The notes beneath the pieces were generated by a model, which saw only the letters and a program-made list of their open reading frames with translations, ran no database searches and was not told the DNA's origin. Shown one piece after another: positions 641 through 36,550 of a stretch of DNA of 64,000 bases. The stretch comes from Taeniopygia guttata (lineage: Eukaryota): the NCBI RefSeq assembly GCF_048771995.1, contig NC_133041.1, positions 4,599,324 to 4,663,323 of the forward strand, given 5' to 3'. The stretch's first letter is position 1. Each line of letters opens with the position of its first letter. The position numbers and the translations under genes are program-made.

Positions 641-2399
641 CAAGGGGTTTTGGGGGATTTCGGGCAATTTTTGATCACTTTAATTCCATTTAAGTCACTT
701 TAATGTCACTTTTGATCACTTTAGTGTAAATTTTATTCATTTTAAACTCATTTTTACCCCTTTAAGGCACTTAAATGTCACTTTTGGTCACTTCAATGCC
801 ATTTTTGGTCACTTTAATACCATTTTGGATCACTTTAATGCATTTTTTTCTCCATTTAGGACATTTTAATGTAACTTTTCCTCCATTTCCTGGAACTTTG
901 CCTCCCCCTACCCAAATTTTGGGTGGGTTTCAGTCAGTTTTGGGTCATTTTCAGTCGGTTTTGGGTCATTTTCAGTTGGTTTTGGGTTATTTTCAGTCGG
1001 TTTTGGGTGGATTTCAGTCATTTTTTAGGTTTTGAGGGGTTTCACTCCTTTTCAGCTCGGTTTCGCTCATTTTTGGGTCATTTTCTCTTGGTTTTGGGTT
1101 GTTTTCGCTTCATTTTGGGTCAGTTTCACTCAGTTTTGGGTCATTTTCACTCCATTTTGGGTCATTTTCACTCCATTTTGGGTGATTTCGCTCAGTTTTG
1201 GGTGGATTTCACTCAGTTGTGGGCAAGTTTCACTCAGATTTGGGTCATTTTCACTCCATTTTGGGCCAGTTTCACTCCATTTTGGTCCATTTTGGGTCAT
1301 TTTCACTCCGTTATGGGCCATTTTCACTCCATTTTGGGCAAGTTTTCCTCCATTTTGGGCCAGTTTTACTCCATTTTGGGTCATTTTATGTCATTTTTAC
1401 TCCATTTTGGGTAATTTTCACTCAATTTTGGGTAATTTTCACTCCATTTTGTGTTGGTTTCACTCAATTTTGGGTCATTTTCACTCCATTTTGGGCCATT
1501 TTCACTCAATTTTGGGCCATTTTCACTCCATTTTGGGTCATTTTCACTCCATTTTGAGCCATTTTCACTCAATTTTGGGTCATTTTCACTGGGTTTTGGG
1601 CCATTTTCACTGGGTTTTGGGCCATTTTCACTGGGTTTTGGGTCATTATCACTCTGTTTTGGGTCATTTCCACTCCATTTTGGGCCATTTTTACTCTGTT
1701 TTGGGCCATTTTCACTGGGTTTTGGGCCATTTTGGGTCATTTTCACTAGGTTTTGGGCCATTTTCACTCCATTTTGGGCCATTTTCACTCAATTTTGGGT
1801 CATTTTCTCTCCATTTTGGGTCATTTTCACTCCATTTTGTGCCATTTTTACTCAGTTTTGGGCCATTTTCACTGGTTTTTGGGCCATTTTCACTGGTTTT
1901 TGGGCCATTTTCACTCCATTTTGGGCCATTTTGCGTCATTTTCACTGGGTTTTGGGCCATTTTCACTCCATTTTGGGCCAGTTTTACGCCATTTTGGGCC
2001 ACTTTGGGTCATTTTCACTCCATTTTGGGTCATTTTCACTCCACCTTGGGCGATTTTTACTCCGTTTTGGGCCATTTGGGTCATTTTCACTCCATTTTGG
2101 GCCATTTCCACTCCATTTTGGGCCATTTTCACTCCGTTTTGGGCCATTTCCACTCCATTTTGGGCCATTTTCACTCCGTTTTGGGCCATTTCCACTCCAT
2201 TTTGGGCCATTTTCACTCCGTTTTGGGCCATTTTCACTGGGTTTTGTTCCATTTTCACTGGGTTTTGGGCCATTTTCACTCCGTTTTGGGCCATTTTCAC
2301 TCTGTTTTGGGCCATTTTGGTTCATTTTCACTCCATTTTCACTGGGTTTTGTGCCATTTTCACTCCGTTTTGTGCCATTTTGGGCCATTTTCCCCGTTT
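641..2399. repeat. Tandem satellite with ~21-24-bp units (cactttaatg.. then gggycattttcactcmrttttg)
   Basis: There are hundreds of near-identical units. The overlapping multi-frame ORFs (for example 1032-3338) are artefacts. Confidence 0.9.
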
Positions 2400-6329: not shown

Positions 6330-6720
6330 CGTCCAACCCCGATTGGGCGTCGCCGCTGCCACTCCCACCTCCCCTGTCCTGTGATTGGCCGGCGCGATGA
6401 AATCCCGCCTTGTTTCCGGTTGGGGCGCGGGGGTTGTTGGGAGTTGTAGTCCCGCGGGAAGTAACAGCGCGGATGAAAAATGGCGGGAGCGCGGCCAAGA
6501 TGGCGGCGGGGAGCTGAGTGAGGGCTCGGGCTCGGCCCCGCCGCTCCGGAGCCCTCCCGGAGGCCTTTGGGGAAGGTCGGGGCTCGGTGAGTGAGGCCCG
6601 GAGGGGTCCCGGGGGTCGCGGGGGTCCCGGGGGTGGCGGGGACGGGAGGGAATGGGTGGGATGGGGGGGCGGTGACGTCACGGGGCAAGATGGCGGCGGC
6701 GGCGTGAGGGGAAGGGGGGG
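6330..6720. promoter_or_regulatory. CpG-island promoter upstream of VKORC1, possibly bidirectional with PAGR1
   Basis: It is CpG-dense and carries a reverse CCAAT box (gtgattggccgg ~6382), an ETS-like ttccgg, gggagttgtagtcccg (reverse complement ACTACAACTCCC, a ZNF143/SBS-type motif), a CRE palindrome tgacgtca (~6672), and two YY1-core motifs caagatggcggcgg (6496, 6686), each followed by a gtgag(t/g)g donor-like site. Confidence 0.6.
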
Positions 6721-26800: not shown

Positions 26801-27137
26801 ATTTTTTCCCGCCTGGATCTTCCTCCTCATCCTCATCTTCCCCTCCCTCAAATTTCGCTTTTTCTCCCCATTTTTTCCCCATTTTTTCCCCGATTTCCCC
26901 CGTTTTTCCCCCATTTTTCCTCTCTGCCTCCTCCCCTCCCTCCTCTTCCCCCTCCCCCACCATTTTCCTCATTTTTGTCCCATTTTCCCCCATTTTTTCC
27001 CCATTTTCCTCCTCATTTCTCTTCCTCCTCTCCTCCTCTTCCTCAGCCCCATTTTTCCCGCCATTTTCACTTTTCCCGCCATTTCCGCCATTTTCCCGCC
27101 ATTCTCCCCATCCGCCAGGGGGCGCCCCTCTGGCCAC
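23871..27137 (-). CDS. HIRIP3: Putative HIRIP3 large acidic exon expanded into ~25 in-frame tandem repeats of ~120-135 bp (K/E/D-rich); the 5' limit is unknown
   Basis: A 1154-codon open frame lies on the HIRIP3 strand with units ..DPGGKNRKKTGKIEEKRQKMTKKLTKKSKFESEEEEDEDEEEEEE... It ends ..[50 protein letters not shown] with a strong donor AAG|GTGAAAA at 23870, in phase with exon 21207-21351. Human HIRIP3 has a comparable Ser/Glu/Lys-rich centre. Caveat: a purine-only repeat whose unit is a multiple of 3 stays open without selection. Confidence 0.4.
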
Positions 27138-27901
27138 GCCCCCTTCCAGCTCCGCGCATGCGCAATCGGCCTCGCCGCCACCCGGCGCCCTGCGGAGAAG
27201 AAAAGGGCGTGGTCAAACAGGGCGTGGTCAAACAGGGCGTGGCAGCATCGGGGGCGTGGCCAACGCAAGGCGTGGCCCCCCCGGGGGGGTCTCCGGTGTT
27301 TCCCCTCCCCCCTCCCGGTACCGTTCGCAGCCGCTCGCCGCCGCCGCCGCCGCCATTTCTGCGCCCTCAGAGCAGCGACCAATGAGGATGGGGATGAACG
27401 ACAGTGAGGCGGGGCTTGAGGCGTGATAACCAATGAGGTGCAGCGCTATGAACCAGGAAGCGGCGACAACCAATAGAAGCGAGGAAAAGGCGGGGTGAAG
27501 TTGAGCGGCAGCAGTTTTGGCCAATCAGAAGCGCGGCAGAACAGCGCAGGCCAATAGAGCGCGGAGCAACTTGTGGGAGTGAATGGCAGCCACTTTAACC
27601 AATCAGAAGCCGGCTAGGAGCTGCAACAACCAATTAGAAGCGTCAGTAGGCGGGGCTAAGCTGCTGAGCCATGCCTAACACGGAAACGCTTGGCGCGTGA
27701 TTGACAGCAGCGCCACCCAATCAAATCGCCGCTTTCTGACGGTTTAACTAATCACACACAGCAGAAGGCGGGGTTTAATCCCGCTCCCGGAGAAGAACCC
27801 GGAAGAGGAACGCGGGGTTGGACCAAAAGGGACCAATCAGGAGGCGGCGCGGGAAGGGGAGAGCCAATGAGGAGCGAGGGGAAGGGCGGGGCTTGTCCGC
27901 C
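27138..27901. promoter_or_regulatory. HIRIP3/INO80E bidirectional CpG-island promoter with an array of 11 same-orientation CCAAT boxes
   Basis: CCAAT boxes lie at 27379, 27430, 27470, 27521, 27551, 27599, 27629, 27717, 27833 and 27864 (plus a variant 27748), mostly in the context RRCCAAT[CG]AG, which is the NF-Y consensus. There are also runs of gggcgtggtcaaacagggcgtgg and an ATGGCGGCGGCGGCG stretch on the minus strand (about 27340). The INO80E ATG follows at 27902. Confidence 0.65.
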
Positions 27902-27985
27902 ATGAACGGGGCGAGCGAGGGCGATGGCGGCGGCTACAAACGGCGCTGCCGGGCCCTGAAACGGCGCCTGAAGCTGCTGCTCTAC
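27902..27985 (+). CDS. INO80E: INO80 complex subunit E, exon 1 coding part
   Basis: It encodes MNGASEGDGGGYKRRCRALKRRLKLLLY with the donor TAC|GTGAGG. It matches human INO80E [27 protein letters not shown]. Confidence 0.85.
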
Positions 27986-28059
27986 GTGAGGGGCGGGGCC
28001 AAGGGGAAAGGGGAGGGGCTTAAAGGGCGGGAAGGGAAAAGGGGCGGGGCTTCAGCGTG

Positions 28060-29100
28060 AGGGGAGTGGGGGGCAATGGGGGGAATGTGAAATATTGGGG
28101 AAAAAATGGGAATTTTGGGGGGAAAAATGGGAAAATTTGGGGGGAATAGGGGAGTTTTGAGGGTTTGGGGGGGTTTTGGGGAAAATTTGGGGGTTTTGGG
28201 AAAGAATTTGGGGGTTTTGGGGGGGAAAATGCTAATTTTGAAAGGAAAAATACCGAAATATTGGGGGAAAAAAGTGAATTTTTAAGGGGAAAAATGGTAA
28301 TGTTTGATGGGAATTAGGGAGTTTTGGGTGTTTGGGGGAGTTTTGGGGGGTTTGGGGGAAAATTTGGGGGTTTTGGGGGGAAAAATGATAATTTTGAAAG
28401 GAAAAATACCGAAATATTAGGGGAAAAAAGTGAATTTTCAAAGGGGAAAAAGGGTAAAGTTTGGGGGAATTAGGGAGTTTTGGGTGTTTGGGGGAGTTTT
28501 GGGGGTTTTTGGGGAAAATTTGGAGTTTTTGGGAGGAAAATGGGAATTTTGAAAGGAAAAATACCGAAATATTAGGGGAAAAAAGTGAATTTTTAAAGGC
28601 TAAAAAGGGTAAAGTTTGGTGGGGGAAAATACAATTTTTAGGGGGAAAATTGGAATTTTTGGAGAGAAAAAAAGTCAACTTTTGGGGTAAAAATTTGAAT
28701 TTTTGGGGACAAAAAGGACCATTTGGGGGTAAAAAAGGTTGAATTTTCAAGGGTAAAAGCTGACTTTTGGGAGGAAAAAAATAGAATTTTTAGGGGGAAA
28801 AGGTGGATTTTTGAGAGGAAAAAAAGCCAAATTTTTGGGTAAAAAAGGTGAAATTTTTGAGGGGGAAAATGGTAAATTATGGGGGAGAAAAAGTCAAATT
28901 TTGTGGGGAAGAACATGAATTTTTAGGGGTAAATAGCCAAATATTGGGGGCAAAAAAAGCTGAATTTTTGAGAGCAAAAAAAGAGAAATTTTAGGGGGGA
29001 AAACCTAAATTTCGGAGGGGAAAAAAGCCAAATTTGGGGGGGAGGGGGGGGAACGTGAATTTTAGGGTAAAAAAGCCAAATTTTGGGCAAAAATTAAAAT
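28060..29100. repeat. ~130-bp satellite (ggggaaaaatg.taattttgaaaggaaaaataccgaaatattgggg..) in INO80E intron 1
   Basis: The periodicity is visible directly. Confidence 0.85.
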
Positions 29101-29108
29101 TCCCCCAG

Positions 29109-29179
29109 GAGCAGGAATGTTTCCAGGAGGAGCTGAGGAGGGCCCAGCGCAAACTCCTGAAAGTCTCCAGGGACAAAAG
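29109..29179 (+). CDS. INO80E: INO80E exon 2
   Basis: The acceptor is tcccccag| and the donor AG|GTACC. It encodes [23 protein letters not shown](R/S), matching human [24 protein letters not shown]. Confidence 0.9.
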
Positions 29180-29199
29180 GTACCAAAATCATCAAAATT

Positions 29200-30150
29200 C
29201 ACCCCAAAAATTCCTTTTTTTCTTCAAATTCTTCAAATTCCTTAAAATCGTCCTAGAAAGTTCACAATTTAAAAAAATTAATTTAATTTTATTTCCAAAA
29301 TTCTAAATTTTTCAGATTTTTATTTTGAATTTCCAAATTTTTAAGATTTCTATGCTTAAAAATAACCTATTTTTAAAATTTTAGTTTATGTTCTTTCTAA
29401 ATTCCCAGTTTAAAATTTTTTTCCAAGATTCTCAAATTTTAAAAAAATTTTTCCCAAATTGCCAACTTTTATTTCTATTTTTTGCCCCAAAAATTTCCTT
29501 TATTAGAATTTTTATTTTTACTTTTTTTTTTTCCAAGTTCTCCATGTTTTTTTTTTATTTCTTGATTTTTCCCAAACTTCTGTTAGGCTTTTTTTGCAAA
29601 AATCCTCAATTTTTAAAAACTTCCCATTTTGACTTCTGTTTTTTCCTAAAGTCGTTAATTTCTGGTTTTTATTTCCATTTAATTTTTATTTATAATTTTT
29701 TTTTTTATTTAGCTTTCTAATTTTTCAATTTTTAGTTTTTATTTATTTTTCTTTTAATTTTTTCACAACTTTTTTTAATTTTTAGGTTTTATTTATATTT
29801 TTTTGTTTCAATTTTTTATTTTTGTCTTTTAATTTTAATTTTTTATCTTTATTACTTTTTTATTTTTAATTTTTTTTCTTTATGTTTTTTACTTCTAATT
29901 TTTTATTTGTCTTTTTTATTTTTATGTCTTTTTTATTTTCATTTTTTCCTTATTTTTAATTTTTAGTTTTGTTTCTATTTTTTATTGATTTTTTTTTCTT
30001 GCTTTTATTTCATCCTAGAACCTCACTTTATTCAATTTTTTTCCTTTTTTTCCCTTATTTTTCCCCCAAAATTCCCAACTTTTTCCATTTTATTTAAAAT
30101 TTTTTTTCCCCTTCTTTTCCCCCCCAAAACCTTCAAATTTTTGGTTTTTT
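29200..30150. repeat. AT-rich low-complexity block (tttttaattttttatttt) in INO80E intron 2
   Basis: It is low complexity and T-rich. Confidence 0.8.
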
Positions 30151-30157
30151 TCCTCAG

Positions 30158-30210
30158 TTTCCTTTTGGACCGGCTCCTGCAGTACGAAAACGTCGACGAT
30201 GATTCCTCAG
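30158..30210 (+). CDS. INO80E: INO80E exon 3
   Basis: The acceptor is tcctcag| and the donor G|GTACC. It encodes (S)FLLDRLLQYENVDDDSS, matching human SFLLDRLLQYENVDEDSS. Confidence 0.9.
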
Positions 30211-30315
30211 GTACCTCTGGGGGGTCAAAGGTCAAACCCAGGGGGGGTCAGAGGTCAAACCCGGGGCTGGCCCCGCCCCTCCCGCACCCCCTGATTGGCT
30301 CCTCCCCCTCCCCAG

Positions 30316-30391
30316 ACTCGGAGGCGACGGCGTCGTCCGACAACAGCGACGGCGACGGCGCCAAGGGGGCGGAGCCAACGCCCGCCAAGAG
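30316..30391 (+). CDS. INO80E: INO80E exon 4
   Basis: The acceptor is ccccag| and the donor AG|GTCAGC. It encodes [25 protein letters not shown](R), matching human [27 protein letters not shown]. Confidence 0.85.
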
Positions 30392-30419
30392 GTCAGCGAG
30401 GGGTTAAAAAATCCAAGAT

Positions 30420-31330
30420 GGCCGCCAGGGTGGGCGTGGTTTCAAAATGGCCGCCCAAGAGTTGGGAGGGGTTTCAAAATGGCGGATCTTGAGGTGGGCG
30501 GGGTTTCAAAATGGCGGATCTTAGGTGGGCGGGGTTTCAAAATGGCGGAGCTTGAGGTGGGCGGGGTTTCAAAATGGCGGATTTTGAGTTGGGTGTGGCT
30601 TCAAGATGGCTGCCGTCATGGTGGTAAAAATCTAAGATGGCCACCATTGTGGGTCTCAAAATCCAAGGTGGCTGCCATTATGGGGGCCAAATTTCAAAAT
30701 GGCTACCATCCTGTGGGTGAAAATCCAAAATGGCCACCAATATGGAGGTTAAGATTCAAGATGGCCTCCACCATGTGGTTTAAGATTCAAGATGGCTGCC
30801 ACCATGAATGTAAAATTTCAAGATGGCCACCATCATGGCCGTCAAATTTTAATATGGTTGCCACCATTTGGGTGAAAACCCAATATGGCTGCCATCATGG
30901 CAGTCCAATTTCAAGATGGCGGCCACCACGTGGGTGAAAATCCAAGATGGATACCATCATGAATGTAAAATTTCAAGATGGCCACCATTATGGATGTCAA
31001 ATTTGAATATGGTTGCCATAATTTGGGTGAAAATCCAATATGGCTGCCATCATGGCAGTCCAATTTCAAGATGGCGGCCACCACATGGGTTAAAATCCAA
31101 TATGGCTGCCATCATGGCAGTCCAATTTCAAGATGGCGGCCACCACGTGGGTGAAAATCCAATATGGCTTCCATCATGGCAGTCCAATTTCAAGATGGCG
31201 GCCACCACGTGGGTGAAAATCCAATATGGCCGCCATTATGGATGTCAAAATCGAAGATGGCTTCCATCATGGCGGCCAAATTTCAAGATGGCTGCCACGA
31301 TGAATGACAAAATCCAAGATGGCTGCCTAA
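30420..31330. repeat. ~60-bp satellite carrying a YY1-core (AAGATGGCGGCC) and an E-box (CACGTG) in INO80E intron 4
   Basis: The unit ccaatatggctgccatcatggcagtccaatttcaagatggcggccaccacgtgggtgaaaat occurs about 15 times, with divergent copies toward the 5' side. Confidence 0.85.
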
Positions 31331-31363
31331 TAAGTGGGCGTGGCCAACGCTTCTTCCTTGCAG

Positions 31364-31415
31364 GCGCCGCTCTCCGACCCCGCCCCCCTCAAACTTTGGC
31401 CCCTCCTCCTATTTG
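31364..31415 (+). CDS. INO80E: INO80E exon 5
   Basis: The acceptor is ttccttgcag| and the donor TTG|GTGAGT. It encodes (R)RRSPTPPPSNFGPSSYL, matching human KRKRSPPLGGAPSPSS.. The phase is consistent with exons 4 and 6. Confidence 0.75.
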
Positions 31416-31504
31416 GTGAGTGCCCCTCCCCTTCCTCTTTAAGCCCCGCCCATTTTTGCGGACAAAGTGGGCGGGGCCTGACGTGGCCCCTCCCCCTTCC
31501 CAAG

Positions 31505-31606
31505 ATGGCGTCGCCGCCGTACGGGTCGTTCCCCCTCCCCCCGCAGGGCGGGGCCCGGCCACGCCCCGTCCCCGCCCGGCGCAGCAAAGGGACGCGCAGA
31601 GGCCAG
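31505..31606 (+). CDS. INO80E: INO80E exon 6
   Basis: The acceptor is cccttcccaag| and the donor CAG|GTGAGG. It encodes MASPPYGSFPLPPQGGARPRPVPARRSKGTRRGQ, matching human ..SRYPPFPSDY..LRPKREKRPRLPRKLK. The acceptor choice is slightly uncertain, with an alternative at cccgcag|GGC (31546). Confidence 0.7.
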
Positions 31607-31609
31607 GTG

Positions 31610-32800
31610 AGGGGCGGGGCTAACGGAAAGGGGTGGGGCTAAAGGAAAGGGGTGGGGCCAAAAAGAAAAGGGGCGGGCTAAAGAAAAAGGGGCGGGGATA
31701 AAGAAAATTTATTAACGGAAAAGGGGCGGGGCTAAACGGAAAGGGGCGGGGATAAAGAAAAAGGGGGTGGGGCTAATGGTAAAGGGGTGGGGCTAAACGG
31801 AAAGGGGCGGAGATAAAGGGAAAGGGGAGGGGCTAAAGAAAAAAAGGGTGGAGCTTAAAATAAAGGAGGTGGGGTTAAAGGGAAAGGGGTGGGGCTAAAA
31901 GAAAAGAGGTGGAGTCAAAGAGAAAGGGGTGGGGCTAAAGGAAAAGAGGAGGGGCTAAAGGGAAAGGGGTGGGGCTTAAGGGAAAGGAGGTGGGGCTAAA
32001 GGGAAAGGGGTTAAAAGGAAAAGAGGTGAGGCTAAAAAGAAAGGGGTGGGGCTAAAGAAAAAGTGTTAAAAGGGAAAGGGGCGGGGCTAAATAAAAAGGG
32101 GCGGAGCTAAAGAAAAAAGTGTTAGTGGGAAAGGGGTGGGGCTAAAATGAAAGGGGTGGGGTTAAAAGGGAAAGGGGTGGGGCTAAAGAAAAAAGGGGTG
32201 GAGCTTAAAAGAAAGGAGGTGGGGTTAAAGGGAAAGGGGTGGGCTAAAGGGAAAGGGGCGGGGCTAAAGGGAAGGGGCGGGGCTAAAGAAAAAAGTGTTT
32301 AAGGGAAAATGCCGGTACCAAAGGGAAAAGGGGTGGGGCTAAAGTGAAAGGGGTGGGGCTTAAGGGAAAGCAGGTGGGGTTAAAGGAAAAGGGGTGGAGC
32401 TAAAGGGAAAGGGGTGTGGCCAAGGGAAAGGGGCGGGGCTAAGGGAAAAGGGGCAGGGCTAAAGGGAAAGGGGTGGGTATAAAAAAAGAAAGGGTTAAAA
32501 GGGAAAGGGGCGGGGCTAAAAAGAAAGGGTGAAAAGTGTAAGGGGCGGGGCTAAATAAAAAGGGTTAATGGAAAGGGGTGGGGCTAAAAGAAAAGGGGTG
32601 GGGCTAAAGAAAAAGGGTTAAAAGGAAAAGGGGTGAGGCTAAAGGGAAAGGGGCGGGGCTAAAAAGAAAGGGGGTGGGGCTAAAAGGAAGTGGGATTACG
32701 GGAAAGGGGTGGGACTAAAGAAAAGGGGGTGGGGCTAAAGAAAAAAGGCGGGGTTAAAAGGGGAAAGGGGTGTGGCTAAATGGGGAGGGGTCATGGGGGT
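31610..32800. repeat. 18-bp GC/GT-box satellite (aaaggggtggggctaaag / ggggcggggc), ~65 copies, in INO80E intron 6
   Basis: The periodicity is visible directly. Confidence 0.9.
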
Positions 32801-32867
32801 CAAGGTGGGGTCAGGGGTCACTCAGCGGTCACTCACTGACCCTCCCCCCCTCTCTCCCCCCCCCCAG

Positions 32868-33110
32868 CCCCCTCCCGCCCCTCCCCCTCTGCCCCTTTCG
32901 GGGGGTGGGGCGGGGGCGGGGCTGGGCGGGGGGCGTGGCCCTGGCTCGCCCCTCCCCCCGGCGCTGGCCCCGCCCCCGGCCCCGCCCCCCGTGCCCCCCA
33001 CGCTGCCCCGGCGGCTCCTGAGCGGCCCCGGGGGCGGGGAGGGGGAGGGGGAGGGCAGCGACGACCCCCTGGACGGGGACGACGAGCTGGTCATCGACCT
33101 GCCCGAGTGA
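32868..33110 (+). CDS. INO80E: INO80E terminal exon (stop TGA at 33108-33110)
   Basis: The acceptor is cccccccag|. It encodes a Pro/Gly-rich segment followed by ..PPTLPRRLLSGPGGGEGEGEGSDDPLDGDDELVIDLPE*, matching the human INO80E C-terminus ..[22 protein letters not shown]. Confidence 0.85.
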   Translation, partial: PPPAPPPLPLSGGGAGAGLGGGRGPGSPLPPALAPPPAPPPVPPTLPRRLLSGPGGGEGEGEGSDDPLDGDDELVIDLPE

Positions 33111-34620
33111 CCCCGAGTGACCCCGAGTGACCACTGACCCCTGAGTGACCCCTGAGTGACCATCGGCCTCCCTGAGTGACCCCTGAGTGACCACCGACCT
33201 TCCCTGGACGGGGACGACGAGCTGGTCATCGACCTGCCCGAGTGACCCCGAGTGACCCCGAGTGACCCTGAGTGACCCCTGAGTGACCAGTGAGTGACCA
33301 GTGACCTCCCTGAGTGACCACCGACCTTCCCTGGACGGGGACGACGAGCTGGTCATCGACCTGCCTGAGTGACCCCTGAGTGACCATTGACCTCTCTGAG
33401 TGACCAGTGACCCCGAGTGACCCCGAGTGACCATCGGCCTCCCTGAGTGACCCCTGAGTGACCATCGGCCTCCCTGAGTGACCACCAACCTCCCTGAGTG
33501 ACCATCGGCCTCCCTGAGTGACCATCAGCCTCCCTGAGTGACCATCGGCCTCCCCAAGTGACCACCGGCCTTCCCTGGACGGGGACAACGAGCTGGTCAT
33601 CGACCTGCCCGAGTGACCCCGAGTGACCCCTGAGTGACCACTGAGTGACCCTGAGTGACCACTGAGTGATCCTGAGTGACCGCTGAGTGACCACTGACCT
33701 CCCTGAGTGACCATCGGCCTTCCCTGGACGGGGACAACGAGCTGGTCATCGACCTGCCCGTGTGACCCCTGACCGCTGAGTGACCACTGAGTGACCACCG
33801 ACCTCCCTGAGTGACCATCAGCCTCCCTGAGTGACCATCAACCTTCCTGAGTGACCATCGACCTTCCCTGGACGGGGACGATGAGCTGGTCATCGACCTG
33901 CCCGAGTGACCCCGAGTGACCCTGAGTGACCCCTGAGTGACCATTGACCTGCCCGAGTGACCCCGAGTGACCCCTGAGTGACCACTGACCTCCCTGAGTG
34001 ACCATCGGCCTTCCCTGGACGGGGACGACGAGCTGGTCATCGACCTGCCCGAGTGACCCCTGAGTGACCCCGAGTGACCCCGAGTGACCCTGAGTTACCC
34101 TGAGTGACCATCGGCCTCCCTGAGTGACCCCTGAGTGACCACCGGCCTTCCCTGGACGGGGACGACGAGCTGGTCATCGACCTGCCCGAGTGACCCCGAG
34201 TGACCCCGAGTGACCCCGAGTGACCAGTGAGTGACCATCGACCTCCCTGAGTGACCATCGGCCTCCCTGAGTGACCATCGGCCTTCCCTGGACGGGGACG
34301 ACGAGCTGGTCATCGACCTGCCCGAGTGACCCCGAGTGACCCTGAGTGACCAGTGAGTGACCACTGACCGCTGAGTGACCCCTGAGTGACCAGTGACCTC
34401 CCTGAGTGACCACCGACCTTCCCTGGACGGGGACGACGAGCTGGTCATCGACCTGCCCGAGTGACCCCGAGTGACCCCTGAGTGACCCCGAGTGACCCTG
34501 AGTGACCACTGAGTTACCACTGACCCCTGAGTGACCGCTGAGTGACCATCGGCCTCCCTGAGTGACCCCTGAGTGACCACTGAGTGACCACGGGGTGTGG
34601 AGTGACCATCGGCCTTCCTG
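33111..34620 (+). other. About 9 partial copies of the INO80E last-exon 3' end (LDGDDELVIDLPE plus stop) within a GAGTGACC micro/minisatellite
   Basis: The unit cttccctggacggggacgacgagctggtcatcgacctgcccgagtga recurs at about 33199, 33320, 33562, 33710, 33858, 34008, 34140, 34284 and 34416, separated by (gagtgacc/cctgagtgacc)n. Confidence 0.85.
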
Positions 34621-36550
34621 AGTGACCAATGGGAGTTTTTGGGTGTAAAAATGTCAATTTTGGTGTTAAAATTTTTTTTTTTTTTTTAATTGGGATTTTT
34701 GGACGTAAAAATGTCAATTTTGAGGTTAAAATTGGGGAAATTTGGGTCAAATGTGGATTTTTAATGTAAAAATGTCAATTTTGGGGTTAAAATTGGGGAA
34801 ATTTGGGTCAAATGTGGATTTTTAATATAAAAATGTCAATTTTGGGGTTAAAATTGGGGATTTTGGGTTAAATGGAATTTTTGGATGTAAAAATGTCCAT
34901 TTTGGATATGAAATGAGGAATTTTGGTGTTAAATGAATTTTTGGATGTAAAAATGTCAATTTTGGGGTTAAAAAAGGAAGTTTTCAGTCAAATGTGAATT
35001 TTTGGATGTAAAAATGTCAATTTTGGGGTTAAAATTGGAGAATTTTGGTGTGAAATGGGAATTTTTAAATGTAAAAATGTTAATTTTGGGATTAAAATTG
35101 GGGAATTTTTGGTTAAATGGGAATTTTTGGATGTAGAAATGTCAAATTTGGGGTTAAAATTGGGGAAATTTGGGTCAAATGTGGATTTTTAAAGTAAAAA
35201 TGTCAATTTTGGGGTTAAAATTGGGGATTTTGGGTTAAATGGAATTTTTGGATGTAAAAATGTCAAATTGGAGGTTAAAAATGGGGAATTCTGGGTCAAA
35301 TTGGAATTTTTAGATGTAAAAATATCAATTTTGGGATTAAAATTGGGGGTTTAGGGTTAAATGTGAATGTTTTAGATGTAAAAATGTCAATTTTGGGGTT
35401 AAAATTGGGGATTTTTCAGTTAAACTGGAATTTTTGGATGTAAAAATGTTAATTTTGGGATTAAAATTGGGGAATTTTGGGTTAAATGGGGATTTTGGAC
35501 ATAAAAGTATCAATTTTGGTGTTAAAATTGGGGTTCTGGGTTAAATGTGGATATTTGGATTAAAAATTTTTAATTTTGGGGTTAAAATTTGGGAATTTCG
35601 GGTCAAATGAGAATTTTTAGATGTAAAAATCTCATTTCTGGGGTTAAAACTGGAGAATTTTGGTGTGAAATGGGAATTTTTGGATGTAAAAATGTCAATT
35701 TTGGGGTTGAAATTGGAAGTTCTGCGTCAAATGGGAATTTTTGGAAGTAAAAATGCCAACTTTGGGGTAAAAAAAAATAGGAAATTTTGGGTTAAAATTA
35801 GGGATTTTGGATAAAAAACAGAGAATTTTGGTGTGAAATGGGAGTTTTTGGATGTAAAATTTTCAATTTTGGGGTTAAAATGGAGGGTTTGGGGTTGAAT
35901 GTGAAGTTTTGGATGCAAAAATGTGAATTTTGGGGTGCTGAGGAGAAAACCCTTTGAATTTGATGTAAAAAAGTCGAATTTTTATTAAAATTCGTTAAAT
36001 TCTCACCCAAAATTGGGGATTTTTGGGGTTAAAATCTTAAATTTTGGGTTTAAATCAGCCAATTTCAGGAAAAAAAAAACCCCAGCAGTAATTCTGAGGG
36101 GAAAATTTGCAAATTCTGAGGGGAAAACCTTTGAATCTGAGGCAAAAAAGTCGATTTTCATTAAAAACGTTCGAGTCTCACCCAAACCGTGAATTTTGGG
36201 GGTAAAATCCGAGATTTTTGGGTTAAAATGAGCCGATTTTAGGAAAAAAAACCCCCACAATAATTCTGAGGGGAAAAGTTGCAAATTCTGAGGGGAAAAC
36301 CTTCGAATCTGAGGTAAAAAAGTCGATTTTTATTAAAAACGTTCAATTCTCACTCAAACCGTGAACTTTGGGGGTAAAATCTGAGATTTTTGGGGTAAAA
36401 TCAGCCGATTTTAGGAAAAAAAAAACAACCCAATAATTCTGAGGGGAAGATGTATGAATTCTGAGGGGAAAAATATCACCAAATTTGAGGTTAAGAATTC
36501 GAATTTTATTAAAAACGTTCGATTCCCACCCAAAAATGAGAATTTTGGGG
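34620..36550. repeat. ~60-bp satellite (gtaaaaatgtcaattttggggttaaaattggggaatttgggtcaaatgtggatttttaa), then a ~120-bp repeat four times (36050-36550)
   Basis: The periodicity is visible directly. Confidence 0.85.

What the first reader, a model, noticed from the sequence alone, without database searches (positions are those of the whole stretch)
30420..31330. INO80E intron 4 satellite made of YY1-core plus E-box units
Each ~60-bp unit contains caAGATGGCGGCCacCACGTGgg, which is the canonical YY1 core (AAGATGGCGGC) next to a CACGTG E-box, about 15 times. YY1 is itself a subunit partner of the INO80 complex. The same YY1 core also occurs twice in the VKORC1/PAGR1 promoter (6496, 6686). This may be an intronic binding-site sink or enhancer array.
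Basis: partly seen in the sequence, partly recalled or inferred. Interest (0 to 1): 0.5.

Follow-up and report, generated by a model that had tools for sequence, protein, structure and literature searches.

The report
Zebra finch INO80E intron minisatellite
Intron 4 of the zebra finch INO80E gene is filled by 30 copies of a 31-32-bp repeat that each carry a YY1-like binding motif; it is one of about 160 such repeat arrays in this window, typical of bird dot chromosomes, though the motif core recurs in the same introns of other birds and one turtle.

Summary
The array is real (window 30414-31348, + strand, INO80E intron 4), but it was described inaccurately. The unit is 31-32 bp, not about 60 bp. 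There are 30 monomers: 6 G-rich 'A' units, then 24 'B' units in exact 31-bp register with 62- and 155-bp higher-order repeats.

The quoted composite (canonical YY1 core plus CACGTG) occurs 3 times exactly and once with CACATG. All four copies are near-identical products of one recent duplication. CACGTG is not enriched in the window. A degenerate core, CAAnATGGC, is present in 24 monomers.

The window is zebra finch. TRF covers 84% of it, with periods in multiples of about 10.5 bp. This is the published intronic minisatellite ('sequence stuttering') landscape of avian dot chromosomes.

Best reading: the array is a local tandem expansion of an old intron-4 element. The YY1-like cores are probably inherited from that seed, not assembled for function.

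One observation keeps a functional reading open. The core, but not the spacer or period, recurs in INO80E introns 4-5 of a suboscine, a tinamou, a goose (one copy) and one sea turtle. It is absent from a second turtle and from intron 4 of a caecilian. This pattern resembles the Peg3-DMR YY1 clusters. YY1 occupancy was not testable here.

The parts
30318..30392 (+). INO80E exon 4 (DSEATASSDNSDGDGAKGAEPTPAKR), 5' boundary of the array intron
   Evidence: tblastn; donor AG|gtcagc read
30393..31362 (+). INO80E intron 4 (970 bp); 93% is covered by tandem repeats
30414..30442 (+). First unit, CAAGATGGCCGCCAGGGTGGGCGTGGTTT, 22 nt from the 5' splice site. It aligns with the first motif in Myiozetetes, goose and Natator. 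It shares the GTGGGCGTGG tail with the last unit.
30443..30601 (+). 'A' sub-array: five 31-32-bp units, CAAAATGGCGGATCTTGAGGTGGGCGGGGTTT. GC 56%, CpG observed/expected 0.88 (composition figures are for 30414-30601, first unit included). The architecture resembles the 30-bp unit of Myiozetetes intron 4.
30602..31314 (+). 'B' sub-array: 23 monomers in exact 31-bp register, consensus CAAGATGGCTGCCATCATGGGGGTCAAAATT. GC 45%, CpG observed/expected 0.35 (composition figures are for 30602-31332, last unit included). Each monomer contains the near-palindrome GATGGCnGCCATC.
30788..31097 (+). Two copies of a 155-bp (5-monomer) higher-order repeat, 92% identical
31036..31221 (+). Three copies of a 62-bp dimer (0-2 mismatches per monomer). 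The fourth copy of that variant is at 30912.
31315..31348 (+). Last, truncated unit, CAAGATGGCTGCCTAATAAGTGGGCGTGGCCAAC, then the polypyrimidine tract and acceptor
31363..31418 (+). INO80E exon 5 (RRSPTPPPSNFGPSSYL)
31501..31512 (+). Isolated CAAGATGGCGTC that straddles the intron 5 / exon 6 boundary (cccaag|ATGGCG). The same arrangement occurs in Myiozetetes at L001 12755.
6476..6697 (+). Three YY1 cores (AAAAATGGCGGG, and CAAGATGGCGGC twice) in the VKORC1/PAGR1 bidirectional promoter. They are not part of the array. They are conserved in Myiozetetes (L001 270-505).

Best explanation
The array is a lineage-specific intronic minisatellite of the kind that fills introns on avian dot chromosomes, described in the literature as 'sequence stuttering' or intronic minisatellites with unit lengths in multiples of 10-11 bp.

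Proposed history (inferred):
- A short, old intron-4 element lay 13-47 nt downstream of exon 4. It consisted of a YY1-consensus core CCAAnATGGC(C/G)GCC followed by a GGGCGTGG-type G-rich box.
- It was duplicated in tandem in the passerine lineage, giving the 'A' units, which resemble those of a suboscine.
- In the zebra finch lineage a derived, AT-richer 31-bp 'B' monomer then expanded. It was reorganised into 155-bp and 62-bp higher-order repeats by further local duplication.

Likely mechanism of expansion (inferred): replication slippage, unequal exchange or gene conversion, helped by the hairpin-forming near-palindrome ATGGCnGCCAT and by a unit length of three helical turns.

The many YY1-like cores are inherited from the seed by copying. 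The canonical AAGATGGCGGC + CACGTG version is a single young variant. I judge it most likely that the array as a whole has no specific function beyond being intron sequence, and that most B units are methylated and unoccupied in the germ line.

Shown: anatomy, copy history, genomic context, cross-species recurrence of the core.
Inferred: expansion mechanism, methylation state, absence of function.
For: - Organism and context. VKORC1 spliced from the window is identical to Taeniopygia guttata XP_041575461.1, on a 5.7-Mb contig. TRF covers 84% of the window in about 161 arrays, with period peaks at 10-11, 21, 31-32, 42, 52, 63 and 74 bp. INO80E introns 1, 4 and 6 are 83-96% tandem repeat.
- Literature. 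In zebra finch dot chromosomes, tandem repeats make up more than 70% of introns, mostly minisatellites with units in multiples of 10-11 bp (10.1101/2025.10.17.683159). Dot chromosomes are highly methylated and 51% of their euchromatin is minisatellite (10.1101/2025.10.14.682431). In chicken, 'sequence stuttering' is of local origin, and exon stuttering also occurs (PMC12954441).
- Exon stuttering is seen here too: the end of the INO80E terminal exon is copied about 9 times at 33200-34461.
- Local origin. The unit matches nothing else in the window or in the fetched loci. The first and last units share the GTGGGCGTGG tail.
- Copy history. Monomers 16/21/23 and 17/24/26 are identical, the 155-bp repeats are 92% identical, and the lag-2 and lag-5 mismatch minima fit the higher-order structure.
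- CpG decay. The B part has CpG observed/expected 0.35. Core positions 10-11 read CCG, CTG or CCA.
- Hairpin potential. The single-stranded DNA fold has z = -4.2 against shuffles.
- Other arrays carry transcription-factor consensus sequences in the same way. Intron 6 has exact GGGGCGGGGC sites (20 in the window against 0.6 expected). Twelve arrays meet the loose YY1 cluster criterion.
- The seed element is present as a single copy in goose intron 4 and as a near-site in tinamou intron 4.
Against: - The core CAAnATGGC is clearly the least variable part of the B monomer: 1.0 mismatches per site against 4.3 elsewhere among 17 distinct monomers, rank 1 of 31 placements, permutation p about 0.007.
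- Its one free position and positions 10-11 vary in the places where, in the matrix I wrote from memory, YY1 tolerates variation.
- The same core, with different spacers and periods (14, 30, 31, 32 and about 63 bp), fills intron 4 of Myiozetetes (16 sites including the exon 6 acceptor, none elsewhere in 22 kb apart from the promoter) and intron 5 of a tinamou (13 sites). Five of the six sites in 21 kb of the Natator turtle locus lie in introns 4-5.
- A purely neutral array would not obviously keep one 9-12-bp core through complete turnover of the rest.
- No methylation or occupancy data were available, so 'unoccupied' is an inference.
Confidence: 0.6

Rival explanations
1. The array is a functional cluster of YY1 binding sites of the Peg3-DMR type. 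Selection keeps many YY1 sites in INO80E introns 4-5 in birds and some turtles while number, spacing and intervening sequence turn over. YY1, which partners the INO80 complex in mammals, would bind the unmethylated units and act on INO80E or its neighbours as an intragenic enhancer, a tether, or a methylation-setting element. This could amount to a feedback loop.
For: - The core is the most conserved part of the monomer.
- The core recurs in orthologous introns of Myiozetetes, tinamou, goose (one copy) and Natator, with unrelated spacers.
- Eight perfect CGCCATnTT sites lie in the array, half of those in the window.
- YY1 motifs also sit in the INO80E-side promoters of seal, goose and zebra finch.
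Against: - The second turtle, Carettochelys, has a 58-bp repeat in intron 4 with no YY1-type site. The caecilian has none in intron 4.
- The goose keeps only one copy, so multiplicity is not conserved.
- The B units show CpG decay, and most have the weaker ATGGC(T/C) form.
- The intron 1 arrays are also shared between the two passerines without any YY1 motif, so retention of an array is not special.
- Degenerate YY1-like clusters are common in this window.
- There are no binding data, and the matrix was written from memory.
Confidence: 0.22
2. The element works at RNA level. The sense-strand motif CAAGAUGGC(G/C/U)GCC, repeated just downstream of the 5' splice site, acts as an intronic splicing enhancer or exon-definition aid for the very short exons 4-6 in an extremely repeat-rich pre-mRNA.
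For: - All sites are on the transcribed (sense) strand.
- The first motif lies 13-47 nt from the 5' splice site in five sauropsids.
- The same core straddles the exon 6 acceptor in two passerines.
- The literature raises a splicing role for intronic minisatellites and non-B DNA on dot chromosomes.
Against: - Uniform orientation inside a tandem array follows from copying and is not independent evidence.
- No known RNA-binding protein motif was matched, and there is no Rfam hit.
- The goose PAGR1 array of the same core lies upstream of a start codon, not next to a splice site.
Confidence: 0.08
3. The array is an assembly or collapse artefact of a hard-to-sequence region.
For: Dot-chromosome minisatellite regions show PacBio HiFi coverage dropouts. 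Array sizes differ greatly between the window and the Myiozetetes draft assembly.
Against: The array has an exact 31-bp register over 23 monomers, with graded divergence and a nested higher-order structure. Independent assemblies of other species show the same kind of array in the same introns.
Confidence: 0.03

Closest known systems
Intronic minisatellites / 'sequence stuttering' of avian dot chromosomes (PMC12954441; 10.1101/2025.10.14.682431; 10.1101/2025.10.17.683159)
   Same: A zebra finch gene lying in DNA that is 84% tandem repeat. The array is confined to one intron, of local origin and imperfect. Its unit length falls in the 10-11-bp-multiple series (31 bp). Exon stuttering occurs at the 3' end of the same gene. 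The sequence has non-B (hairpin) potential.
   Different: Those papers describe the class, not this array. They do not report that a unit's core matches a transcription-factor consensus, or that a core persists in the orthologous intron across bird orders.
Clustered YY1 binding sites in tandem repeats of Peg3 intron 1 (Peg3-DMR), and likewise Xist/Tsix and Nespas (PMC2665242, PMC4196374)
   Same: A tandem repeat inside an intron whose small conserved motif is a YY1 site (GGCGCCATCTT there, GGCnGCCATCTTG here on the other strand). All sites share one orientation. The motif is kept between species while number and spacing differ.
   Different: Those are mammalian imprinting control regions with demonstrated YY1 binding and allele-specific methylation. 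Birds have no known imprinting. No binding is shown here. Most units carry the weaker non-CpG form. Multiplicity is not conserved (one copy in goose, none in Carettochelys).
Promoter-proximal YY1 motif AAGATGGCGGC of housekeeping genes
   Same: The same 11-mer on the sense strand. Genuine examples lie in this window's VKORC1/PAGR1 promoter (6497, 6687) beside CRE and ZNF143-like motifs.
   Different: The array lies about 2.5 kb inside the gene, in intron 4, is multi-copy, and is not at a mapped transcription start.
Goose PAGR1 5' array (L002 4040-5141)
   Same: An independent tandem expansion of the same YY1 core in a neighbouring gene of the same syntenic block: 29 cores, 26 of them perfect CGCCATnTT.
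   Different: Different gene and position (immediately upstream of the ATG), GC-rich 37-108-bp units, CpG retained.

Membership tests
Avian dot-chromosome intronic minisatellite ('sequence stuttering') | Lies in a gene on a bird dot chromosome or its repeat-dense euchromatin | tested here: inconclusive
   The organism is shown to be zebra finch by 100% VKORC1 identity, on a 5.74-Mb contig, which is dot-chromosome size. TRF coverage is 84%, which fits published dot-chromosome euchromatin. The chromosome name itself was not available.
Avian dot-chromosome intronic minisatellite ('sequence stuttering') | Imperfect tandem repeat of tens of bp confined to a single intron, leaving the exons intact | tested here: met
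   30 monomers of 31-32 bp at 30414-31348, inside intron 4 (30393-31362). Exons 4 and 5 are intact.
Avian dot-chromosome intronic minisatellite ('sequence stuttering') | Local origin: the unit is not a dispersed repeat | tested here: met
   The 155-bp higher-order repeat and the A units match only 30429-31323 in the window, and nothing in the other loci. The rest of the genome could not be searched.
Avian dot-chromosome intronic minisatellite ('sequence stuttering') | Unit length in multiples of 10-11 bp | tested here: met
   Periods of 31-32 bp. The window-wide period histogram peaks at 10-11, 21, 31-32, 42, 52, 63 and 74 bp.
Avian dot-chromosome intronic minisatellite ('sequence stuttering') | Evolutionarily recent and polymorphic in length | not testable with these tools
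   Identical monomers indicate recent copying. No population data were available.
Clustered YY1-binding-site array (Peg3-DMR type) | At least 3 YY1 motifs (cgCCATntt, at most 1 mismatch) within 500 bp | tested here: met
   29 sites in intron 4, 8 of them perfect. However, 11 other arrays in the window also meet this criterion, so it has little specificity here.
Clustered YY1-binding-site array (Peg3-DMR type) | A motif cluster at the homologous position in other species despite unconserved surrounding sequence | tested here: inconclusive
   Met in Myiozetetes intron 4, tinamou intron 5 and Natator introns 4-5. Goose has a single site. Carettochelys has none, and the caecilian has none in intron 4. 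Mammals could not be examined.
Clustered YY1-binding-site array (Peg3-DMR type) | In vivo YY1 occupancy | not testable with these tools
   No ChIP or CUT&RUN data were accessible.
Clustered YY1-binding-site array (Peg3-DMR type) | Differential or regulated CpG methylation of the cluster | not testable with these tools
   Indirect evidence only: CpG observed/expected is 0.35 in the B part and 0.88 in the A part.
E-box (USF/MYC) site array | CACGTG recurring in the repeat unit beyond chance | tested here: not met
   3 copies, all in identical young monomers. The window-wide count is not above shuffles.

The most novel reading that the evidence does not exclude
INO80E introns 4-5 carry a multi-copy YY1-site cluster that predates the split of the major bird lineages (seen in a tinamou, a goose and two passerines, and possibly shared with some turtles). 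It would be maintained by selection through complete turnover of repeat unit and copy number. That would make it a non-mammalian, non-imprinted counterpart of the Peg3-DMR, sitting in a gene for a subunit of the very remodeller (INO80) that YY1 recruits, and so a candidate YY1-INO80 feedback element.
Probability: 0.18. Interest if true: 0.6.

Novelty: new member of a known kind. Interest (0 to 1): 0.3.

Why it matters
Taken as it stands, this is one more example of the minisatellites that fill zebra finch dot-chromosome introns. It shows that consensus transcription-factor motifs inside such arrays are poor evidence of function. By the loose published YY1 criterion, a dozen arrays in 64 kb look like 'YY1 clusters', and another intron of the same gene is an array of GC boxes.

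It would matter more if the cross-species persistence of the core reflects selection. These arrays could then be used to ask whether 'stuttering' amplifies pre-existing regulatory sites. Two independent cases appear here: INO80E introns 4/5, and the goose PAGR1 5' region. It would also allow a test of whether birds have Peg3-like clustered YY1 elements outside any imprinting context.

There is also a practical consequence. GenBank gene models for INO80E in two bird species read through into these repeats and translate them as spurious KMAD/KMAA peptide repeats.

Tried and rejected
- E-box component: rejected. CACGTG occurs only 3 times, in identical copies, and is not above chance.
- 'About 60-bp unit, about 15 composite copies': rejected.
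- Structured RNA gene in or near the array: no Rfam family reaches its gathering score in 27000-35000.
- Dispersed repeat or transposon origin: no other copy in the window or in the fetched loci.
- Published loose YY1 cluster criterion as evidence of function: it flags 12 arrays in the window, for example the CCCCATTTTT 10-mers, so I dropped it as uninformative here.
- Mammalian comparison: failed. The seal locus is N-masked beyond exon 3. The look-ups for the human and bat proteins, and for a frog protein, returned nothing.
- The parrot contig ends in intron 3. The Logan contig L008 is a spliced transcript.
- Deep conservation across all turtles: not supported. Carettochelys has a different 58-bp repeat without the CCAT core.
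- k-mer sharing as proof of special conservation of intron 4: weakened, because the intron 1 arrays are shared between the two passerines even more strongly.

Full report
**1. What is in the sequence**

Reading window 30200-31600 and running TRF shows a tandem array on the + strand between 30414 and about 31348.

Segmenting on the recurring CAAnATGG anchor gives 30 monomers:
- a first unit, CAAGATGGCCGCCAGGGTGGGCGTGGTTT (30414);
- five 31-32-bp 'A' units, CAAAATGGCGGATCTTGAGGTGGGCGGGGTTT (30443-30601);
- 24 'B' units in exact 31-bp register from 30602 to 31315, with consensus CAAGATGGCTGCCATCATGGGGGTCAAAATT.

TRF also reports periods of 62 and 155 bp for the B part.

The mismatch matrix of the B monomers explains those longer periods:
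- A 5-monomer, 155-bp higher-order repeat is present twice, at 30788-30942 and 30943-31097, 92% identical.
- Its last two monomers were amplified further as a 62-bp dimer. Monomers 16/21/23 are identical to each other, and so are 17/24/26.

**2.

The quoted 22-mer AAGATGGCGGCCACCACGTGGG occurs three times exactly, plus once with CACATG. It does not occur about 15 times. These four copies are one recently duplicated monomer variant.

CACGTG occurs three times in the entire 64 kb, all in these copies. The window count is not above shuffles.

The feature that does run through the array is the degenerate core CAAnATGGC. It occurs 24 times in intron 4 and 33 times in the window, against 3.9 expected. 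All array copies are on the + strand.

I also scanned with a YY1 matrix that I reproduced from memory of JASPAR MA0095.2, so it is approximate. It scores 29 + strand sites at 11 bits or more between 30414 and 31501; the last is the exon 6 acceptor, outside intron 4.

**3. Gene and organism**

tblastn with INO80E peptides places the exons on the + strand:

| Exon | Window coordinates |
|---|---|
| 1 | 27902-27985 |
| 2 | 29109-29181 |
| 3 | 30156-30211 |
| 4 | 30318-30392 |
| 5 | 31363-31418 |
| 6 | 31505-31606 |
| last | to 33110 |

The spliced product hits Pfam INO80E (PF24237) at 77 bits. The array therefore does fill intron 4.

VKORC1 lies on the - strand at 6338-2403. Its spliced product is identical, residue for residue, to Taeniopygia guttata XP_041575461.1, recorded on a 5.74-Mb contig. 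The window is zebra finch, and the contig is of dot-chromosome size.

**4. Context**

TRF covers 84% of the window in about 161 non-overlapping arrays. The period histogram has sharp peaks at 10-11, 21, 31-32, 42, 52, 63 and 74 bp.

INO80E introns 1, 4 and 6 are 83%, 93% and 96% tandem repeat. Intron 6 is an array of about 55 units of 20-21 bp built on GGGG(C/T)GGGGC, with exact GC-box decamers: 20 in the window against 0.6 expected. The end of the terminal coding exon (LDGDDELVIDLPE plus stop) is itself copied about nine times downstream.

This matches published descriptions:
- In zebra finch dot chromosomes, tandem repeats make up more than 70% of introns, mostly minisatellites with units in multiples of 10-11 bp (10.1101/2025.10.17.683159).
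- 51% of dot-chromosome euchromatin is degenerate minisatellite, and dot chromosomes are highly methylated (10.1101/2025.10.14.682431).
- In chicken the phenomenon was named 'sequence stuttering'. It is of local origin and includes exon stuttering (PMC12954441).

The 31-bp array is thus one member of a known and very abundant class.

**5. Is the YY1-like core more than an accident of copying?**

Evidence for some constraint:
- Among 17 distinct B monomers, the eight specified core positions show 1.0 mismatches per site against 4.3 elsewhere. The core is the best of all 31 circular placements, and a permutation test gives p of about 0.007.
- The free position of AAnATGG and positions 10-11 vary where, in the matrix I wrote from memory, YY1 is degenerate.
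- Orthologous loci, fetched through annotated INO80E proteins, show the following:

| Species (locus) | INO80E introns 4-5 |
|---|---|
| Myiozetetes cayanensis, suboscine (L001) | Intron 4, 640 bp, with about 15 CCAAGATGGCCG cores in units of 30 bp, 14 bp and irregular length. No other such site in 22 kb except three in the VKORC1/PAGR1 promoter and one at the exon 6 acceptor. |
| Nothoprocta, tinamou (L005) | One near-site in a 90-bp intron 4. An array of at least 13 CAACATGGCCGCC cores (about 63-bp dimers) in intron 5. |
| Goose (L002) | An 80-bp intron 4 with a single CAACATGGCGCC. |
| Natator, sea turtle (L004) | Five of the six sites in 21 kb lie in introns 4 and 5. The two introns share 26-28-bp blocks at 96% identity or more. 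|

- An alignment of the 5' ends of intron 4 puts the first motif of zebra finch, Myiozetetes, goose and Natator in the same columns, 13-47 nt from the splice donor.

This 'motif kept, number and spacing not kept' pattern is what was described for the YY1 sites in the tandem repeats of Peg3 intron 1 (PMC2665242; PMC4196374).

Evidence against constraint:
- The second turtle, Carettochelys (L009), has five copies of an unrelated-looking 58-bp GC-rich unit in intron 4 and no YY1-type site.
- A caecilian (L007) has none in its 1.15-kb intron 4.
- Multiplicity is not conserved, since the goose has a single site.
- The intron 1 arrays are shared between the two passerines at least as strongly as the intron 4 arrays, without any YY1 motif. 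Inheritance of an array over that time span needs no selection.
- By the loose published cluster criterion (cgCCATntt with at most 1 mismatch, at least 3 per 500 bp), 12 arrays in the window qualify. Motif clustering alone therefore means little in this DNA. Even so, 8 of the window's 16 perfect sites are in intron 4.
- The B part is AT-richer (GC 45%) and CpG-depleted (observed/expected 0.35, against 0.88 in the A part). The core's CpG is decayed to CTG or CCA in most units. This is what long-term germline methylation would produce, and it is not what a protected, occupied CpG-rich element would show.

**6. Mechanism**

Three observations bear on how the array grew:
- The first and last units share the tail GTGGGCGTGG.
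- The A units resemble the Myiozetetes 30-bp unit, a G-rich box followed by the core.
- The B monomers carry a near-palindrome, GATGGCnGCCATC. A 186-nt stretch folds as single-stranded DNA far better than shuffles (z = -4.2).

I infer the following history. A single ancestral element (YY1-type core plus a GGGCGTGG box) was duplicated in tandem in passerines. A derived 31-bp monomer then expanded in the zebra finch lineage by slippage, unequal exchange or gene conversion. Two recent rounds of higher-order duplication produced the four 'canonical YY1 + CACGTG' monomers.

A second, independent expansion of the same core exists in the goose. There are 29 CAAGATGGCG cores in 1.1 kb directly upstream of the PAGR1 start codon. 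The two passerines have only 2-3 cores at that promoter. This supports the view that stuttering amplifies pre-existing promoter-type motifs.

**7. Verdict**

The array and the intron are right; the unit size, the composite motif and the count are wrong.
The units do carry YY1-like cores. The E-box is incidental. The proposed function is untested.
- Best explanation (confidence about 0.6): a locally expanded dot-chromosome minisatellite whose motif content is inherited from its seed.
- Main rival (about 0.2): a Peg3-DMR-like functional YY1 cluster.
- Minor rivals: an RNA-level splicing element (about 0.08) and an assembly artefact (about 0.03).
- Novelty: a new member of a known kind.
- Interest: modest (0.3).

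The one point worth following up is the persistence of the core in INO80E introns 4-5 across bird orders and in one turtle.

Noticed in passing
window 33100-34461: The last 13 codons and the stop of INO80E (LDGDDELVIDLPE*) are tandemly copied about 9 times downstream of the real terminal exon, with a period of about 135-150 bp. This is an instance of 'exon stuttering'.
   Followed up: partly
window 31607-32867: INO80E intron 6 is an array of about 55 units of 20-21 bp built on AAAGGGG(C/T)GGGGCTAAAG. It contains exact Sp1/KLF-type GC boxes (GGGGCGGGGC: 20 in the window against 0.6 expected). This is a second intron whose repeat unit looks like a transcription-factor site.
   Followed up: partly
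whole window: 84% of the 64 kb is tandem repeat (about 161 arrays). Unit lengths are quantised at about 10.5-bp multiples (10-11, 21, 31-32, 42, 52, 63, 74 bp), as published for zebra finch dot chromosomes.
   Followed up: yes
L002 4040-5190 (goose, Anser cygnoides): About 1.1 kb immediately upstream of the PAGR1 start codon holds 29 CAAGATGGCG cores (26 perfect CGCCATnTT) in 37-108-bp repeat units. Zebra finch and Myiozetetes have only 2-3 cores at the same promoter.
   Followed up: partly
window 6390-6700: The VKORC1/PAGR1 bidirectional promoter carries a ZNF143-like ACTACAACTCCCAAC (reverse strand), a CRE (TGACGTCA) and three YY1 cores. The YY1 cores are conserved in Myiozetetes (L001 270-505).
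   Followed up: partly
proteins P0003 (Myiozetetes) and P0002 (Nothoprocta): The GenBank INO80E gene models read through the exon 4 or exon 5 donor and translate the intronic repeat as ...TKMADRGWGDIKMDDGGGGGAKMAAKG... and ...ADMADNGGGRANMADSMG. These are annotation errors caused by the arrays.
   Followed up: yes
L004 11540-11606 and 11946-12049 (turtle, Natator depressus): Introns 4 and 5 share 26-28-bp blocks at 96% identity or more (CCAGTATCCAACATGGCTGCC and GCTGCCATYTTTAATATGGGC). A short segment has therefore been duplicated across exon 5.
   Followed up: partly
window 31501-31512; L001 12755: The exon 6 acceptor reads cccaag|ATGGCGTC, so a YY1-type core straddles the intron 5 / exon 6 boundary in both passerines.
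   Followed up: no
window 1314-2381: The 21-bp array on the VKORC1 side gives 29 weaker YY1-matrix hits (GAAAATGGCCCA), all on the - strand, which is the sense strand of VKORC1. I read this as a by-product of the A-tract/G-tract unit composition.
   Followed up: no
L003 12870-13354 (parrot, Lathamus discolor): INO80E intron 3 is a CCCTATAGA(C/G)-type satellite that runs to the contig end. A different intron of the same gene is expanded in a different bird order.
   Followed up: no
window 27057-27349; L002 9969; L006 9276-9772: YY1-matrix hits on the - strand just upstream of INO80E exon 1 in zebra finch, goose and seal. This suggests conserved YY1 motifs in the INO80E-side bidirectional promoter.
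   Followed up: no
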